A stretch of DNA of 19,078 nucleotides, taken from NCBI GenBank assembly GCA_046595915.1, contig JBKJSI010000430.1:1-19078 (forward strand). Reading direction: 5' to 3'. A model generated the notes under the pieces. It searched no databases and was not told where the DNA came from. It worked only from the letters and a program-made list of their open reading frames with translations. Origin of the DNA: Pirellulaceae bacterium. Lineage in GTDB: Bacteria; Planctomycetota; Planctomycetia; Pirellulales; Pirellulaceae. The translations under genes were made by a program, and so were the position numbers. This document shows, piece after piece, positions 3,479 through 17,251 of this stretch; positions within the stretch are counted from its first letter, which is position 1, and each line of letters begins with the position of its first letter.

Positions 3479-4765
3479 TTAGGGACCCATTAGGGACTCG
3501 ATTTCGTCGGCTTCGATTGGGATATCTTCCATCAAGTCCACCGTTCCGGTTTCGGTCACGAGGATGTTGTTCTCCAGGCGAACGCCAAAACCCTCTTCTT
3601 TAATGTAGATACCTGGTTCACAAGTCAACACCCAACCCGGCGTGATAGGTTGATTGATCTGGCTGAGGTCATGGACATCGAGGCCCAATGAATGGGCTAC
3701 ACCGTGCATGAAGTATTTTTTGACGGCTGGATTGTCGGGATCCTGCTTCTTAATGTCCGAGGGCTTCAGAAGCCCTAAATCAACACATTCTTTCGACGTC
3801 AATTCCTCGGTGAGCTTGCGAAGATCTTTCGTGTAGGCGCCCGGCTTCATCTCGGCGACGATCTGCCGGAAGATCCTCAGCACGGCTTGATACACCTGCT
3901 TTTGGCGACGTGAGAACTTACCTGTCACGGGAATCGTTCGCGTTAAGTCGGAGTTGTATTGGCCGTAGCCGGCCGCCACATCCATCAAGATAAGCTCGCC
4001 TTTTTTGCACACCTTGTCATTTTCGTTGTAGTGCAAAACGCAGTTGTTCTCGCCGGTACAAACGATCGGGTTATAGGCAAAAGTCGCCTTGTTTCGGATG
4101 AATTCGTGGGCGAATTCGGCTTCGATTTCGGCTTCGTTGACGCCTGGCTTGACCATTTTGAGGACGCGTAGAAATCCATCGCGTGTAATGCCGCAGGCCT
4201 TTTTGATGATGTCAACTTCGTGCGGTGATTTGCAGACCCGCATCTCGCTCATGATCCTCGCGAGGCGATGGTAGTGATGCAGCGGATAGGCTTCTTGGCA
4301 GTCGCGAATGAACTTGGCATCCCGCGATTGGACCTCGACTACCGAGCGCGGATGTTCGTTCGCATTGAGATAGACGTGTTCGAGTTCGCACATCAATGGA
4401 TGGAATATGCCTCGAAACTCGGTGAGATATTTGACATTCTTAATGCCGGAAATTCGAGTCGCTTCCTCCTTGGAAATCTTGTGCCCTTCCCAAACCTTGA
4501 GATGTTCGTTCGGTTCGCGAATGAAGAGAATCTCGCGCACCTTTTCGTCGAACGCGCTGGGCGCCAAAAGCAGCATCGTTTCTTCTTGATTGATGCCGGT
4601 TAGATAGAAAAGGTCCGAGTTTTGATGCAGCAACATCGTGCCATCACAGTTCGTCGGCATGATGTCATTAGAATTCAATACGGCGAGTGAACTCGGCAGC
4701 ATCCGGTTGACGACGCGCTCGCGATTGTTCTTAAAGAGTTCGACGGGGAGCGTTACGTTTTTCAT
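3479..4765 (-). CDS. pepP: Xaa-Pro aminopeptidase, M24B family (creatinase_N plus a pita-bread metallopeptidase domain).
   Basis: It carries the HGVAHSLGLDVHD and ENNILVTE metal-ligand signatures, and the DVAAGYGQYNSDLTRT motif is typical of M24B. I place the start at the internal ATG (MKNVTLPVELF...) at 4763-4765. The longer track ORF (to 4870) would translate straight through a perfect 16-bp palindrome. Confidence 0.88.
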   Translation of the reverse strand: MKNVTLPVELFKNNRERVVNRMLPSSLAVLNSNDIMPTNCDGTMLLHQNSDLFYLTGINQEETMLLLAPSAFDEKVREILFIREPNEHLKVWEGHKISKEEATRISGIKNVKYLTEFRGIFHPLMCELEHVYLNANEHPRSVVEVQSRDAKFIRDCQEAYPLHHYHRLARIMSEMRVCKSPHEVDIIKKACGITRDGFLRVLKMVKPGVNEAEIEAEFAHEFIRNKATFAYNPIVCTGENNCVLHYNENDKVCKKGELILMDVAAGYGQYNSDLTRTIPVTGKFSRRQKQVYQAVLRIFRQIVAEMKPGAYTKDLRKLTEELTSKECVDLGLLKPSDIKKQDPDNPAVKKYFMHGVAHSLGLDVHDLSQINQPITPGWVLTCEPGIYIKEEGFGVRLENNILVTETGTVDLMEDIPIEADEIESLMGP

Positions 4766-4815
4766 GGTTGCCTTTTCGTGTTGATATTGAGTTGCAAGGC
4801 TTCCTTGTCCCGAGG

Positions 4816-4851
4816 CGAAGCGTAAGCGAGGGATTCCTCGCTTACGCTTCG
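4816..4851. other. Perfect 16-bp inverted repeat with a 4-nt loop (cgaagcgtaagcgagg / gatt / cctcgcttacgcttcg). It sits in the 105-bp spacer between the CPBP protease stop and the pepP start.
   Basis: Read directly from the sequence. It lies 20 bp downstream of the CPBP TAA (4871-4873 on the minus strand). No U-tract follows on either strand, so it may be an intercistronic hairpin, an RNA processing site or an operator rather than a terminator. Confidence 0.6.
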
Positions 4852-4870
4852 GGTTGGGATGGAGAGCCAT

Positions 4871-5712: not shown

Positions 5713-6339
5713 GTGCTCAGCTGGATTTTTCTTTTTTGTGCGATTGCCGGTGGCACGATCCTGGTTTGCCAGTTCTTGCTCACAGTGCTGGGCTTTGCCC
5801 ACTTTGGGGGCGACCATGATTTTGGCGGTGACCTGCACCATGACGGCGCGGCGAGCGACCATATCGATGTCGACCACGGCGATGGCCAGCCTAGCCACGA
5901 GTCGCATTTCGATGGCAACTGGCTTTTCGCCATGCTTTCGCTGCGAACCGTCACCGCTGGCGCAGCCTTTTTTGGCCTAGGCGGTCTCGGCGCGGCAAGC
6001 CTGCAACTGCCGGCGCTCGTGCAGCTTGGATTTGCTTCGGTTTGCGGCTTCACGGCTCTCTCAGGCGTCTACTACCTCCTTCGCAGCATGATGAAACTCA
6101 ACACCGACAATACCGTTCGGATCACTCGGGCGATCGGCCAGCGCGGCGTGGTCTATCTCACGATTCCCGCGCAGTCGTCGGGCGAAGGCAAAGTGCAGGT
6201 CACTTTGGCGAGCCGCCAAATGGAGTACCCGGCGATCACCAAGTGGGCCAACCCGCTCAAAACGGGCGAACTGATCACTGTCGTTTCCGTCGTCAACAAC
6301 TCCATCCTCGAAGTGACGCCGCTCGCGGGTGAAAAATAG
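5713..6339 (+). CDS. NfeD-like (YuaF/YqiJ-type) membrane protein with a C-terminal OB-fold beta domain. It is the partner of the downstream flotillin.
   Basis: A GTG start at 5713 is preceded by AAGAGGA (5697-5703), which is better supported than the long TTG/ATG-extended ORF starting at 5458. The protein has N-terminal TM helices, a His/Asp-rich loop (HFGGDHDFGGDLHHDGAASDHIDVDHGDGQPSHESHFDGN) and a C-terminal soluble beta-rich domain (VVYLTIPAQSSGEGKVQVTLASRQMEYPAITK...GELITVVSV) typical of short NfeD proteins. It sits immediately upstream of an SPFH/flotillin gene. Confidence 0.75.
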   Translation: MLSWIFLFCAIAGGTILVCQFLLTVLGFAHFGGDHDFGGDLHHDGAASDHIDVDHGDGQPSHESHFDGNWLFAMLSLRTVTAGAAFFGLGGLGAASLQLPALVQLGFASVCGFTALSGVYYLLRSMMKLNTDNTVRITRAIGQRGVVYLTIPAQSSGEGKVQVTLASRQMEYPAITKWANPLKTGELITVVSVVNNSILEVTPLAGEK

Positions 6340-6444
6340 CGCCCGCGAAATCGTCATAAACATCGCAACCATCCCGCAGTCCATTCAGCGTTCAAGGAAT
6401 TGCAACCTAAGTTTTCCTAATCGTTCTGCGAGACCATTGCGCCC

Positions 6445-6556
6445 GTAGGTCAGGCTCCCGCCTGACGGGACCGCGCAACTAGCCAACACTGCGTCAGGCA
6501 GGAGCCTGACCTACATGGAATTCACCTCAGCCGCGTCAGGCAGGAGCCTGACCTAC
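6445..6556. repeat. Three copies of a 24-bp stem-loop element in the NfeD-flotillin spacer. Copy A (6445-6468) is in inverted orientation and matches 22 of 24 positions. Copies B (6491-6514) and C (6533-6556) are identical direct repeats (gcgtcaggcaggagcctgacctac). Each copy contains a 7-bp stem gtcaggc/gcctgac with a 4-nt loop.
   Basis: Read directly from the sequence. A 24-mer perfect repeat cannot be a chance match in 19 kb. The inverted copy could pair with either direct copy as an alternative to the local hairpins. Confidence 0.85.
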
Positions 6557-6594
6557 CCAATACCAGCCTTCACAAAAGCCCCGGAGCTTTCCCC

Positions 6595-8199
6595 ATGCTA
6601 CTCCTCGCTCAATTACAAGACTTGCCAGCAGGCGTCATCACCGCCATCGCCATTGGCCTCGCCGCGATGGTCTTCTTCGGCTTCGTGATGTTCTTCATCC
6701 GTTGCTACAAGCGCTGCCCTTCGAATCGCGTGCTCGTGATCTATGGAAAGACCGGCTCCACCAAGGGCGCGGCAATTACCATTCACGGCGGCGCCAAGTT
6801 CGTCATCCCCGTTATTCAAGACTACGCCTACTTAAGCCTCGAACCGATTCAAATTGAAGTGCCGTTGCGCGGCGCCCTGTCCGCCGAGAACATCCGCGTC
6901 AACGTGCCGAGCGTGTTCACCGTCGCCATCGACACTCGACCTGAAGTGATGCAAAACGCCGCGGTCCGTTTGCTCGGTCTCGATAATAACCAGGTTCGCA
7001 AGCAAGCGGAAGAAATCATCTTCGGCCAGATGCGACAGGTAATCGCCTCGATGCAGATCGAGGAAATCAACCGCGATCGCGAGACGTTCCTCAAGCACGT
7101 TCAACATTCGCTCGAGCCCGAGCTCAACAAAATCGGTCTCCAGCTGATCAACGTTAATATCACCGACATCACTGACGAATCGGGTTACATCGACGCGATC
7201 GGCAAGAAGGCAGCCTCGCTCGCCATTCAACAGGCTCGCGGCGACGTCGCCGAGAATGAGCGAATGGGTGAAATCAAAGTCGCTAGCGCCGAACGCGAGA
7301 AAGCGATTCAAGTCGCGAATGCCCGTAAGGATCAATTGATCGGCACGCGCGAAGCCGCCCGCGATCAAGCGGTGCAAATCGCGAACCTCGAACGCGAACA
7401 GGGCGTCGCCGAGCAAAAAGCCAAGTTCGAACAAGAAAGCGCCGTTAAAGACGCCGAACGAGCCAAACGCGTTCAGATGGCCGACGCCGAAGCCACCGCC
7501 CTCACCGGCGAAAACTTGGCCCAAGCCAAAATCCTCGCCTCGCAAGCCGAACTCGCCGTCAAACGCGCCGAAGCCTTCGAAATCGGCGAAACTCGCAAAC
7601 GTCAAGCTGAAGCGAACGTGCTCGAAATTCAAAATCGCGCGATGGCCAAGGTCGCCGCGGCGGAAGCCGAACGTGCAGAAGCCGAACAGCGTGCGAAGCT
7701 CGAAGCGCCCGCTCGCGCCGCCAAAGCACAAATGATCGTCGAAGCCGAAGCCGCCGCCGAGAAAAAGAAGCTCGAAGCCCACGCCGAAGCGACCTCGATC
7801 TACGCCAAGCTCGAAGCCGAAGCTCGCGGCCAATATGAAATCCTCGCTAAAAAGGGCGAAGGTCTCAAATGCATCATTGATGCGTGCGGTGGCTCCAAGC
7901 AAGCCTTCCAAATGCTGATGCTCGAACATCTCGACAACCTGGCCGAAGCCTCGGCGAAAGCAATCTCGAACGTCAAGTTCGACAAGATCGTGGTCTGGGA
8001 TGGCGGCAACGGCAATGGAACCGGCAACGCCACTTCGAACTTCCTTCAAAGCATGTCAAAGACGCTTCCGCCGATGCTGCAAGTGATGAAGGATGTGGGC
8101 GGCGTCGAGTTTCCCGAAGCGCTTTTCAAGATGGAAGCCGAATCGAGCAACACGGTTAAAGCGGACGATAACAGCGCGGCAGCCGTTACGACGAAATAG
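6595..8199 (+). CDS. floT: Flotillin-like SPFH/band-7 protein (FloT/YuaG/YqiK-type). It has an N-terminal membrane hairpin, an SPFH domain and a long Ala/Glu-rich coiled coil.
   Basis: The N-terminal hydrophobic segment is followed by VLVIYGKTG...FVIPVIQDYAYLSLEPIQIEVP, which matches the SPFH core. An extended EA-rich heptad-like region is typical of bacterial flotillins. The conserved NfeD-flotillin gene pairing is present. Confidence 0.88.
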   Translation: MLLLAQLQDLPAGVITAIAIGLAAMVFFGFVMFFIRCYKRCPSNRVLVIYGKTGSTKGAAITIHGGAKFVIPVIQDYAYLSLEPIQIEVPLRGALSAENIRVNVPSVFTVAIDTRPEVMQNAAVRLLGLDNNQVRKQAEEIIFGQMRQVIASMQIEEINRDRETFLKHVQHSLEPELNKIGLQLINVNITDITDESGYIDAIGKKAASLAIQQARGDVAENERMGEIKVASAEREKAIQVANARKDQLIGTREAARDQAVQIANLEREQGVAEQKAKFEQESAVKDAERAKRVQMADAEATALTGENLAQAKILASQAELAVKRAEAFEIGETRKRQAEANVLEIQNRAMAKVAAAEAERAEAEQRAKLEAPARAAKAQMIVEAEAAAEKKKLEAHAEATSIYAKLEAEARGQYEILAKKGEGLKCIIDACGGSKQAFQMLMLEHLDNLAEASAKAISNVKFDKIVVWDGGNGNGTGNATSNFLQSMSKTLPPMLQVMKDVGGVEFPEALFKMEAESSNTVKADDNSAAAVTTK

Positions 8200-15891: not shown

Positions 15892-16935
15892 CTACCGAAG
15901 GGCGATCTTGCCTTCGGCTGGGCTGTCGACGAACGAGAAGTTCTGAGTCTCGCCGGCGCGGAGAGTGATGGTCTTTTCCATCGATTCTTCCTTGCCATCC
16001 TTTTCGAAGCTCACCTTGATGGTGTAATCGGCCCAAGCAGCGCCACCGCTCAGCTTGGCAGTGCGGAACACGCGGGTGCCACCGGTGGCTTTGGTCGGGT
16101 TGCCGCCCAAAGTGACCTTGGCGTTTTCTGGCACGTTGAGAATCAAAACCGTCTCACTCGGCTTCGCAGCTTCCGTCTTGGGAGCGTCGGCCTTGAAGGC
16201 GACGTCCATGACATGACCAGGTCGCACGACGACATTCTTCACTTCTTCGATTTCTTTGCCATCGACGGTGAAGGTCGCTTTGACTTCGTAGTTGTAAGTT
16301 GCGCCGGCATCAAGACCGCGCGAGACAAACTGTCGCATTTCGCCGGTGCTCTTGGTTTCCTTGCCATTCACGAAGACCTTCGCTTCGGCAGGAACGGAAA
16401 CCGCGAGGATTGCTTCGCTGGCGGGAATGCCAGTGCTTCCTGCAACTTCGCTGTAGGCTGGAGCGTAAGCAGCGCCGTAGGCGCTGCCAACGGAGCCACC
16501 ATAAGTGCCGCCGTAATAGTAACCACCGGAAGATCCACCAGAGGACCCGCCCGAGTAAATCACACCGCCAGAAGAACCACCCGAAGATCCACCGGAGGAA
16601 CCGCCCGAAGAGCCGTAATAGTGGCCCGAGGATCCACCAGAGGAACCGCCGGACGATCCGTAATAAGAACGTCGATACGTTGCGCGAGCATAGTGACGAT
16701 CAGCCATGCGACGGAAAAGGCCGTGGCGATGACCTGACGAACCGCCCGAAGATCCACCCCAGCTACCGCCGGAAGAACCGTAATAGGCATAACCACCAGA
16801 CGAGCCGCCCGAGGATCCACCAGAAGATCCACCCGACGAACCCCATCCTGCCAGGGACTCAGCGGAACCGGCGACCAGCGAAGTCGCGCAAACGGCCGCC
16901 GCTAGCGCCCAACCTGTAAATTTCTTGCGCAGCAT
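15892..16935 (-). CDS. Secreted protein with a long Gly/Ser/Tyr-rich low-complexity region and two C-terminal TIGR03000 (planctomycete-specific) domains.
   Basis: An ATG at 16933-16935 is preceded by GGAGAG. The signal peptide is MLRKKFTGWALAAAVCATSLVAGSA. About 125 aa consist of (GSSGGSS)n with interspersed Tyr. Two roughly 75-aa repeats carry the VPxxAKVxxNG...T...G..R.F......Y.Y.V.A....DG pattern of TIGR03000. The 16-codon N-terminal extension in the track (start 16983) has no support. Confidence 0.8.
   Translation of the reverse strand: MLRKKFTGWALAAAVCATSLVAGSAESLAGWGSSGGSSGGSSGGSSGGYAYYGSSGGSWGGSSGGSSGHRHGLFRRMADRHYARATYRRSYYGSSGGSSGGSSGHYYGSSGGSSGGSSGGSSGGVIYSGGSSGGSSGGYYYGGTYGGSVGSAYGAAYAPAYSEVAGSTGIPASEAILAVSVPAEAKVFVNGKETKSTGEMRQFVSRGLDAGATYNYEVKATFTVDGKEIEEVKNVVVRPGHVMDVAFKADAPKTEAAKPSETVLILNVPENAKVTLGGNPTKATGGTRVFRTAKLSGGAAWADYTIKVSFEKDGKEESMEKTITLRAGETQNFSFVDSPAEGKIALR
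16480..16860. repeat. Imperfect 12-bp tandem DNA repeats (units such as ccaccggaggaa / ccgcccgaagag, in two blocks) that encode the (SSGG)n low-complexity region.
   Basis: Read directly from the sequence. The repeats show coding-frame periodicity on the minus strand. Confidence 0.7.
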
Positions 16936-17251
16936 GCAATTTCTCTCCAAAGTGAAGGTGCGTAAGCGTGTCGGGACGCGCAACGCTGTCAGTTTCGCTT
17001 TCCGAACATAGCAAGCGTAGCTTGCAATTCAAGCAGTTAGCGAGTTTTTGCCTATTGCGCAGACCTGGCGGTCTGGAGAAACGGCAATGACACCCACTCT
17101 AAAGAGGGGGTAATGTTTGTGCCGTAAATCGACCCATCAACCGTTGTTTACTTGAACTCGCATCCATAGTCGTTGATAATTCGCGATGGCGGCCCAAACG
17201 CCGTCACCCGCCAGTTAATGCCCACCCTGCCTCCGTTCATTGAGACCACGC

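What the first reader, a model, noticed from the sequence alone, without database searches (positions are those of the whole stretch)
6340..6594. Three copies of a 24-bp stem-loop element (one inverted) in the NfeD-flotillin spacer, a possible RNA switch or REP-like element
NfeD and flotillin genes are normally adjacent or overlapping (yuaF-yuaG, yqiJ-yqiK). Here they are 255 bp apart. The spacer carries a perfect 24-bp direct repeat (6491-6514 and 6533-6556) plus a 22/24 inverted copy (6445-6468). Each copy folds into a 7-bp/4-nt hairpin, and the inverted copy can alternatively form a roughly 22-bp duplex with either direct copy. Mutually exclusive structures directly upstream of the flotillin start codon could set the NfeD:flotillin ratio through attenuation, processing or occlusion of the start region. 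Alternatively, this is a genome-wide REP-like family.
Basis: seen in the sequence. Interest (0 to 1): 0.55.

Follow-up and report, generated by a model that had tools for sequence, protein, structure and literature searches.

The report
REP palindrome cluster between NfeD and flotillin
The three 24-base stem-loops are copies of an ordinary, widely dispersed bacterial "REP" palindromic repeat that landed in the gap between two membrane-protein genes, not a purpose-built RNA switch.

Summary
There are three copies of a 24-nt unit at 6445-6468, 6491-6514 and 6533-6556, and the first is inverted relative to the other two. Each folds as a 7-bp/4-nt hairpin.

Each unit is GTAG followed directly by the palindrome GTCAGGC-N4-GCCTGAC, which is the signature of GTAG-tagged REP elements.

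- **Dispersal:** The exact loop subfamily occurs on 49 metagenome stretches.
- **Location and arrangement:** copies are mainly extragenic, lack target-site duplications, and pair head-to-head with GTAG outside (32 such pairs, none with GTAG inside). The window's first two copies are arranged this way.
- **Copy number at this locus:** syntenic relatives carry 0, 1 or 2 copies against 3 in the window. The three-copy architecture is therefore not conserved.
- **Switch test:** the two alternative long duplexes differ by 1.4 kcal/mol and leave the predicted structure at the start site unchanged. Rfam finds nothing.

**Verdict:** an ordinary REP trimer (a dimer plus a singleton), a new member of a known kind. 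The REP alternative is supported and the RNA-switch reading is not.

**Untested:** the copy number in the source genome, because the window is the whole contig, and the presence of a RAYT transposase.

The parts
6445..6468 (+). REP copy 1: GTAG + stem GTCAGGC + loop TCCC + GCCTGAC + GG. The GTAG tag is on the + (sense) strand.
   Evidence: The orthologous copy sits at the same junction in L181 and L178.
6491..6514 (-). REP copy 2, with GTAG on the - strand and loop TCCT. With copy 1 it forms a head-to-head (GTAG-outside) dimer.
   Evidence: A decayed orthologous arm is present in L181.
6533..6556 (-). REP copy 3, identical to copy 2 and tandem (head-to-tail) to it. Found only in the window lineage.
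   Evidence: Absent from L181, L178 and L176.
6445..6514 (.). Head-to-head REP dimer (REPIN-like): 23-nt arms, a 24-nt gap between the arms and a 26-nt gap between the 22-nt cores.
   Evidence: I1, 96% complementary. (-48.6 kcal/mol as RNA). (-26 to -29 kcal/mol as ssDNA). The same architecture occurs in 32 other dimers.
5713..6339 (+). Context: upstream gene, a divergent NfeD-family membrane protein of 208 aa.
6595..8199 (+). Context: flotillin (SPFH/Band_7), YqiK/FloT-like.
6398..6421 (+). Context, not part of the REP: spacer motif AATTGCAACCTAAGTTTTCCTAAT. It is near-invariant among the close relatives aligned (window, L181, L178, L176/L121, L122), with or without the REP, and diverged in the more distant L123.
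6584..6587 (+). Context: GGAG ribosome-binding site of flotillin, 27 nt downstream of copy 3 and conserved in relatives.

Best explanation
The three stem-loops are a cluster of GTAG-tagged REP elements (repetitive extragenic palindromes). They form a head-to-head dimer (6445-6514, REPIN-like) plus one further tandem copy (6533-6556).

**Shown.** The unit belongs to a multi-copy, dispersed, mostly extragenic family. A copy entered this spacer in an ancestor of the window, L178 and L181 lineages. Copy number has since changed: 1, 2 and 3 copies.

**Inferred from established REP biology.** Such units are recognised as single-stranded DNA hairpins through the 5' GTAG and the stem. They are spread in trans by a REP-associated tyrosine (HUH/Y1) transposase (RAYT), leaving no target duplication.

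**Inferred for this locus.** The cluster is transcribed within the NfeD-flotillin intercistronic or 5' leader region. It folds into a very stable hairpin and at most acts as REPs generically do: as a barrier to 3' exonucleases and a partial brake on read-through. It is not a regulated switch.
For: - **Anatomy:** GTAG lies directly next to a perfect 7-bp stem with a 4-nt loop. This matches the GTAG-REP definition in PMC3733652.
- **Dispersal:** It gave 120 stretches and 171 copies, with many loci per genome: at least 27 copies in one Steroidobacter MAG, at least 17 in a beta-proteobacterial MAG, and at least 9-10 loci in each of several Planctomycetota MAGs.
- **Exact subfamily:** the TCCY-loop subfamily is on 49 metagenome stretches, several per sample.
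- **Extragenic location:** only 30 of 236 copies (12.7%) lie deep inside crude ORFs, although those ORFs cover 87% of the sequence.
- **Pair arrangement:** adjacent pairs are 32 head-to-head, 0 tail-to-tail and 17 tandem. Head-to-head gaps are 0-62 nt and the window's gap is 26 nt. PMC3733652 describes head-to-head dimers with 20-100 bp spacers, and trimers as a singleton next to a dimer.
- **No target duplication:** none flanks the 33 dimers checked.
- **Locus history:** L181 has the dimer at the identical left junction with a decayed second arm. L178 has copy 1 only. L176, L121, L177, L122, L123, L182 and L183 have none.
- **Negative checks:** there is no Rfam match and no terminator or promoter consensus at the repeats.
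Against: - **Source genome not counted:** the window is the entire 19,078-bp contig and holds only this one cluster. About 54 kb of syntenic sequence from the REP-bearing lineages (window, L178, L181) shows no second locus, so the family may be sparse in this clade.
- **No RAYT found:** neither tblastn with E. coli RayT nor a HUH...YxxxNP motif scan found one in about 1.3 Mb of fetched loci. Mobilisation by a RAYT is therefore inference only.
- **One heuristic fails:** the stem base GTCA has 2 G/C among its first 4 positions. One published REP search rule asks for at least 3 (PMC6006769).
- **Possible constraint on copy 1:** copy 1 is kept almost unchanged in three lineages whose flanking non-coding DNA has diverged. 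This could mean some local selective constraint.
Confidence: 0.85

Rival explanations
1. Locus-specific RNA switch. Alternative pairing of the inverted copy with one or the other direct copy attenuates, processes or occludes the flotillin start region and sets the NfeD:flotillin ratio.
For: - The alternative duplexes exist and are nearly isoenergetic: -77.1 against -78.5 kcal/mol.
- The region folds far better than shuffles (z = -5.3 to -7.7).
- The cluster lies on the sense strand between two co-directional partner genes.
Against: - The three-copy layout is not conserved in any relative, including the nearest: L178 has 1 copy, L181 has 2 with one decayed arm, and the others have none.
- Both conformations leave the predicted structure at the ribosome-binding site and AUG identical.
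- No U-tract follows any hairpin.
- No Rfam family matches.
- The same unit is dispersed at hundreds of unrelated loci.
Confidence: 0.04
2. Exapted REP. The element arrived as a selfish REP but is now kept by selection at this site as a constitutive intercistronic RNA stabiliser or decoupler. Its copy number (1, 2 or 3) would tune relative NfeD and flotillin levels in each lineage.
For: - Copy 1 is 21-22 of 22 identical at the same junction in three lineages whose flanking genes differ by 4-37% at the protein level. The neighbouring non-coding DNA has diverged.
- The hairpins are very stable.
Against: - REP and REPIN copies in general persist at orthologous sites and stay homogeneous without locus-specific function (my own knowledge of the REPIN literature, not checked here).
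- Relatives without the element keep the same gene pair and the conserved spacer motif.
- The second arm is decaying in L181 and missing in L178.
Confidence: 0.15
3. MITE-type remnant of a DDE transposon. The inverted copies would be terminal inverted repeats of a miniature element mobilised by an IS630-like transposase.
For: On L138 an IS630-like element (DDE_3 plus HTH domains) lies between two 124-nt inverted arms that contain this repeat.
Against: - No target-site duplication flanks the 33 dimers. None has a flanking 2-nt direct repeat, so no TA duplication.
- More than half of the copies have no exact-core neighbour.
- On L138 the GTAG ends face inward, opposite to the common dimers. This fits an IS that inserted into a REP cluster.
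- The GTAG tag plus hairpin is the substrate type of HUH/Y1 enzymes (PMC3733652, PMC6006769).
Confidence: 0.04

Closest known systems
GTAG-tagged REP families (Di Nocera, De Gregorio & Rocco 2013, PMC3733652; Nunvar 2010, PMC2817692)
   Same: - Unpaired 5' GTAG directly next to a 6-13 bp G+C-rich stem with a short loop.
- Multi-copy and mostly extragenic.
- Head-to-head dimers 20-100 bp apart, and trimers built as a dimer plus a singleton.
- Already reported in Planctomycetes (Rhodopirellula baltica GTAG-20 and GTAG-21) and shared between distant taxa.
   Different: - This stem (GTCAGGC/GCCTGAC) does not correspond to the peptides listed for the R. baltica families.
- I could not match it to any of the 24 published consensus sequences because Figure 1 is not held.
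- The literal sequence was not found in any REP-related paper: 15 of the 50 papers containing it were listed, all unrelated, such as primer sequences.
REPINs (REP doublets forming hairpins; Bertels & Rainey 2011, cited in PMC3733652)
   Same: - Two inverted REPs with a short spacer fold into one long hairpin.
- Whole-dimer copies with near-identical spacers occur twice on L157.
- Copies persist at orthologous sites.
   Different: - Spacers differ among most dimers.
- No cognate RAYT was identified.
- The window carries an extra tandem copy.
E. coli BIMEs / REP in the malE-malF intercistronic region
   Same: A cluster of REPs in alternating or tandem orientation lies between co-transcribed genes. 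The known generic effect is protection of the upstream mRNA and uneven expression within an operon (my own knowledge, not tested here).
   Different: The sequence is unrelated apart from GTAG, and the E. coli loops are longer. No evidence of IHF or gyrase motifs, and no transcript data, exist for this locus.

Membership tests
GTAG-tagged REP | Short (20-40 bp) palindrome forming a stem-loop | tested here: met
   7-bp perfect stem and 4-nt loop in all three copies. Energies are -12.5 to -12.9 kcal/mol as RNA and -7.6 to -7.9 as ssDNA.
GTAG-tagged REP | Unpaired GTAG tetranucleotide 0-2 nt 5' of the stem | tested here: met
   GTAG lies directly next to the stem in all three copies and in all 236 family copies (the latter by search design).
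GTAG-tagged REP | Many dispersed copies per genome (in other genomes) | tested here: met
   The genome scan was cut at 120 stretches holding 171 copies, with up to 27 or more copies per MAG on many contigs. There are also 49 metagenome stretches of the exact subfamily.
GTAG-tagged REP | Many dispersed copies in the source genome itself | not testable with these tools
   The window is the whole 19,078-bp NCBI contig. The rest of the assembly was not retrieved, and only one cluster lies in the window.
GTAG-tagged REP | Predominantly extragenic | tested here: met
   12.7% of 236 copies lie deep in crude ORFs that cover 87% of the bases. The gene calling is crude.
GTAG-tagged REP | Frequent inverted dimers or clusters (BIME-like) | tested here: met
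   32 head-to-head, 0 tail-to-tail and 17 tandem neighbour pairs, with gaps of 0-62 nt. The window is a dimer (26-nt gap) plus a tandem copy.
GTAG-tagged REP | Cognate RAYT (TnpA_REP, Y1/HUH) gene in the genome, often flanked by the REP | tested here: inconclusive
   tblastn with E. coli RayT and a HUH...YxxxNP scan found none in about 1.3 Mb of loci or in the window. The sample is 8-kb pieces of some 60 or more genomes, so absence says little.
GTAG-tagged REP | Search heuristic of PMC6006769: at least 3 G/C among the first four stem positions | tested here: not met
   The stem starts GTCA, which has 2 G/C. This is a filter rule, not a biological definition.
REPIN | The doublet replicates as a unit (same spacer at different loci) | tested here: inconclusive
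   Two near-identical dimers lie on L157, but most dimers have unrelated spacers.
Riboswitch / cis-regulatory RNA switch | Architecture conserved at orthologous loci, and a match to a described RNA family | tested here: not met
   Relatives carry 0, 1 or 2 copies. Rfam gives no hit at gathering scores, only microRNA-hairpin noise below them.
Riboswitch / cis-regulatory RNA switch | Alternative structures change an expression platform (terminator or ribosome-binding site) | tested here: not met
   The 1:2 and 1:3 duplexes differ by 1.4 kcal/mol and give identical predicted pairing at 6580-6599. No U-tract terminator is present.
MITE (DDE-transposase derived) | Terminal inverted repeats flanked by a target-site duplication | tested here: not met
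   0 of 33 dimers have a 2-nt flanking direct repeat, 1 of 33 a 3-nt one, and none a longer one.
CRISPR array | Direct repeats in one orientation with unique spacers of similar size | tested here: not met
   One of the three copies is inverted. More than half of the family copies have no exact-core neighbour within 150 nt.

The most novel reading that the evidence does not exclude
The REP at this site has been exapted. Copy 1 is held at the same junction in three diverged Pirellulaceae-like lineages, and gain or loss of further copies (1, 2 or 3) acts as a heritable dial on read-through and mRNA stability between the NfeD and flotillin partner genes. This would tune the stoichiometry of the SPFH-NfeD membrane complex.
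Probability: 0.1. Interest if true: 0.45.

Novelty: new member of a known kind. Interest (0 to 1): 0.15.

Why it matters
The result matters mainly as a clean negative. A striking set of mutually exclusive hairpins directly upstream of a start codon turns out to be the expected by-product of a REP trimer, so it should not be pursued as a riboswitch.

There is minor positive value in two respects:
- It documents a GTAG-REP family (stem GTCAGGC) that is widespread in uncultured Planctomycetota and shares its core with families in Gamma- and Betaproteobacteria.
- It gives a small natural series of 0, 1, 2 and 3 copies at one orthologous intercistronic site. That series could be used to test what REPs do to expression of neighbouring genes.

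Tried and rejected
- **Rfam:** a gathering-score search of the whole window gave nothing. An E-value search on 6250-6700 gave only sub-threshold microRNA-hairpin matches.
- **Finding the source genome:** the exact flotillin look-up failed in the look-up of encoding contigs. The listing of cluster members showed that the window is a complete 19,078-bp NCBI contig. BLAST of the window against all fetched loci found relatives only.
- **RAYT hunt:**
  - ORFs between paired REPs on L090, L092, L157, L163 and L169 are ordinary genes.
  - tblastn with E. coli RayT gave only E > 1 noise, and the two best places are unrelated genes.
  - The HUH/Y motif scan gave 2 false positives.
- **IS630 lead (L138):** this looks like an IS inserted into a REP cluster, not the source of the repeat.
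- **NfeD identity by sequence:** Pfam, NCBIfam, BLASTP against E. coli YqiJ and a PDB sequence search were all negative. The profile search against PDB gave only spurious designed-propeller repeat hits. Only homolog-wise Pfam scanning and fold comparison resolved the question.
- **Promoter and terminator consensus scan:** nothing was found at the repeats.
- **Literature search for the literal sequence:** the listed hits were unrelated papers (e.g. primer sequences), none on REPs.
- **Tandem duplication as the origin of copy 3:** the flanks of copies 2 and 3 are not similar beyond the 24 nt, so this is unresolved.

Full report
**1. The observation**

The sequence is as described. GCGTCAGGCAGGAGCCTGACCTAC occurs perfectly at 6491-6514 and 6533-6556, and its reverse complement occurs with two mismatches at 6445-6468. 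None of 200 dinucleotide-preserving shuffles of the window gave a single match, and the 19-kb window holds no further copy.

Each copy folds into a 7-bp stem with a 4-nt loop, at -12.5 to -12.9 kcal/mol as RNA and -7.6 to -7.9 as ssDNA. Copy 1 can pair over 23 nt with copy 2 or copy 3. The 1:2 hairpin is -48.6 kcal/mol and the whole cluster is -64.2 kcal/mol, both far below shuffled controls.

The spacer runs from the stop at 6339 to the ATG at 6595, which is 255 nt.

**2. The flanking genes**

- **Downstream gene:** 6595-8199 is a flotillin. It matches Band_7 at E = 1e-27, matches the FloT model weakly, and is 25% identical to E. coli YqiK over its full length.
- **Upstream gene:** the protein is the 208-aa product of 5713-6339, and this exact sequence is the one on record in NCBI. 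It has no family hit of its own.
- **Support for an NfeD assignment:** 13 of 36 homologs match PF01957 NfeD weakly. Some homologs carry the name that I recognise, from memory, as the COG1585 (NfeD) description. An AlphaFold model (mean pLDDT 76, C-terminal beta domain above 88) has as its four best PDB matches YuaF, YbbJ in the QmcA-YbbJ complex, MTH693 and PH1510-C, all NfeD proteins.

The NfeD-flotillin labels are therefore right.

The premise that the pair is normally adjacent does not hold in this clade. Relatives without the repeat have spacers of 62-182 nt.

**3. What the unit is**

Read on the strand where it starts with GTAG, every copy is GTAG + GTCAGGC + 4 nt + GCCTGAC. An unpaired GTAG abutting a short G+C-rich hairpin is the signature of the GTAG super-family of REPs. 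That family has been described in more than 80 species, including Planctomycetes (PMC3733652).

It returned 120 stretches holding 171 copies.

- The hits include many Planctomycetota MAGs and isolates, such as Kolteria novifilia, strain ZRK34, and Pirellulales, Isosphaeraceae and Phycisphaeraceae MAGs.
- They also include a Steroidobacter MAG (at least 27 copies on many contigs), a beta-proteobacterial MAG (at least 17 copies), Sulfuricella, Sideroxydans and single hits elsewhere.
- Loops differ by lineage (TTCA, TTTA, TATT, TCCC and others).
- The window's TCCC/TCCT loops recur in about a dozen MAGs labelled Planctomycetaceae or Planctomycetales.

A metagenome scan for the exact subfamily, GTAGGTCAGGCTCCYGCCTGACG, gave 49 stretches, several per sample. 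Seven contigs of similar coverage came from ERZ869936 alone.

**4. Family properties**

- **Extragenic location:** with a crude ORF-based gene call covering 87% of 1.10 Mb, only 30 of 236 copies (12.7%) lie more than 30 nt inside an ORF.
- **Pair arrangement:** neighbouring copies are 32 head-to-head (GTAG outside), none tail-to-tail and 17 tandem. Head-to-head gaps are 0-62 nt with a mode near 30 nt.
- **The window fits this pattern:** copies 1 and 2 form such a dimer (26-nt gap between cores, mixed TCCC/TCCT loops as in several other dimers), and copy 3 is a tandem addition. This is the "trimer = singleton next to a dimer" of PMC3733652.
- **No target-site duplication:** none flanks the 33 dimers checked. 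This argues against a DDE-type MITE and fits HUH/Y1-type single-strand transposition.
- **The IS630-like element on L138:** one such element sits between REP-containing inverted arms. The GTAG ends face inward there, so I read it as an IS that landed in a REP cluster.

**5. The same locus in relatives**

The flotillin cluster and homolog searches gave syntenic loci. By four proteins the window is closest to L178-L180, then L181, then L176, L177 and L121, then L122 and L123.

| Locus | REP copies in the spacer | Notes |
|---|---|---|
| Window | 3 | Head-to-head dimer plus one tandem copy |
| L181 | 2 | Dimer at the identical left junction (...tgcgccc\|GTAGG); second arm decayed (one deletion, CTAC to CCAC); no third copy |
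| L178 | 1 | Copy 1 only, followed 13 nt later by the ribosome-binding-site region |
| L176, L121, L177, L122, L123 | 0 | |
| L182 (Pirellulaceae OZ247499), L183 (Anatilimnocola floriformis) | 0 | |

All the close relatives, with or without the REP, keep a 24-nt spacer motif (window 6398-6421) and the GGAG site. The simplest history is one insertion in the common ancestor of the window, L178 and L181, followed by loss, decay and gain of arms.

**6. The switch idea**

The alternative pairings are real, but they follow automatically from having three copies with one inverted.

- With constrained folding of 6400-6625, the 1:2 and 1:3 duplex states are -77.1 and -78.5 kcal/mol. They give identical predicted pairing over the ribosome-binding site and AUG.
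- No hairpin is followed by a U-tract, and no sigma-70-like promoter is present.
- Rfam has nothing at gathering scores.
- The three-copy layout is absent even from the nearest relative.

I therefore reject a dedicated switch.

**7. Most likely mechanism**

- **Shown:** the unit belongs to a dispersed GTAG-REP family. The cluster is a lineage-specific, copy-number-variable insertion.
- **Inferred from the family (PMC3733652, PMC6006769):** units are recognised as ssDNA hairpins with a 5' GTAG guide and are spread in trans by a RAYT.
- **Inferred for this locus:** the cluster is transcribed with the two + strand genes. It forms a very stable hairpin and, at most, acts as a generic REP-type RNA barrier.

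**8. Limits**

- I could not count copies in the source genome, because the window is the whole contig.
- About 54 kb from the three REP-bearing lineages holds no second locus, so the family may be sparse in this clade.
- No RAYT was found in the roughly 1.3 Mb sampled. Given the sampling, this says little.
- Retention of an almost unchanged copy 1 in three lineages leaves room for some local constraint, so I keep a modest probability for an exapted, constitutive role.

**9. Novelty and score**

REPs of this class, their dimers and trimers, their presence in Planctomycetes and their sharing between distant taxa are all published. The particular stem was not found in the searchable text, so I file this as a new member of a known kind. 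Interest is low at 0.15.

Noticed in passing
window 6398-6421: The motif AATTGCAACCTAAGTTTTCCTAAT is near-invariant in the NfeD-flotillin spacer of the close relatives aligned (window, L181, L178, L176/L121, L122), with or without the REP, while the rest of the spacer has diverged. It is a better candidate than the REPs for a locus-specific promoter, operator or RNA signal.
   Followed up: partly
window 4808-4859: A second palindrome (24-nt arms, 4-nt loop, core CGAAGCGTAAGCGAGG) lies between the CAAX-protease and M24-peptidase genes. The same core recurs in other Planctomycetota loci: L011, L015, L121/L176/L177 just downstream of flotillin, and L147, L149, L151 and L173. In the last four it lies 17-112 nt from the GTAG-REP, mostly 17-75 nt. 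This looks like a second dispersed repeat family.
   Followed up: partly
window 3479-4870 (- strand): The 463-aa M24 aminopeptidase ORF is over-extended at its N-terminus through the palindrome at 4808-4859. Orthologs (428 aa) start at MKNVT, near 4766.
   Followed up: partly
L003-L118 (Steroidobacter CALMII01) and L036-L106 (beta-proteobacterium CAVTHT01): The identical GTAG+GTCAGGC/GCCTGAC core is multi-copy in Gamma- and Betaproteobacterial MAGs (at least 27 and at least 17 copies) as well as in Planctomycetota. They differ mainly in the loop (TTCA/TTTA against TCCC/TATT). Shared ancestry, transfer of a RAYT-REP pair or convergence could each explain this.
   Followed up: partly
L138 1-1481: An IS630-like element (DDE_3 and HTH ORFs, apparently frameshifted) is bracketed by 124-nt inverted arms. 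Each arm contains a tight REP doublet with GTAG facing inward. It is probably an IS inserted into a REP cluster.
   Followed up: partly
window 5713-8199 compared with L178 and L181: Kinship is mosaic. NfeD, the CAAX protease and the M24 peptidase are closest to L178 (88-96% aa). Flotillin and the spacer flank next to the REP are closest to L181 (95.7% aa). This suggests recombination in or near the spacer.
   Followed up: no
L157 334-408 and 1143-1217: Two REP dimers with near-identical 31-nt spacers and flanks bracket a 219-aa ORF of unknown family. This is evidence that a whole dimer was copied as a unit.
   Followed up: no
window 15892-16983 (- strand), repeats 16514-16861: An ORF holds nine overlapping copies of a 54-nt (and 12-nt sub-period) repeat encoding a Gly/Ser-rich low-complexity tract. 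It has a weak PEGA-domain hit at the C-terminal end.
   Followed up: no
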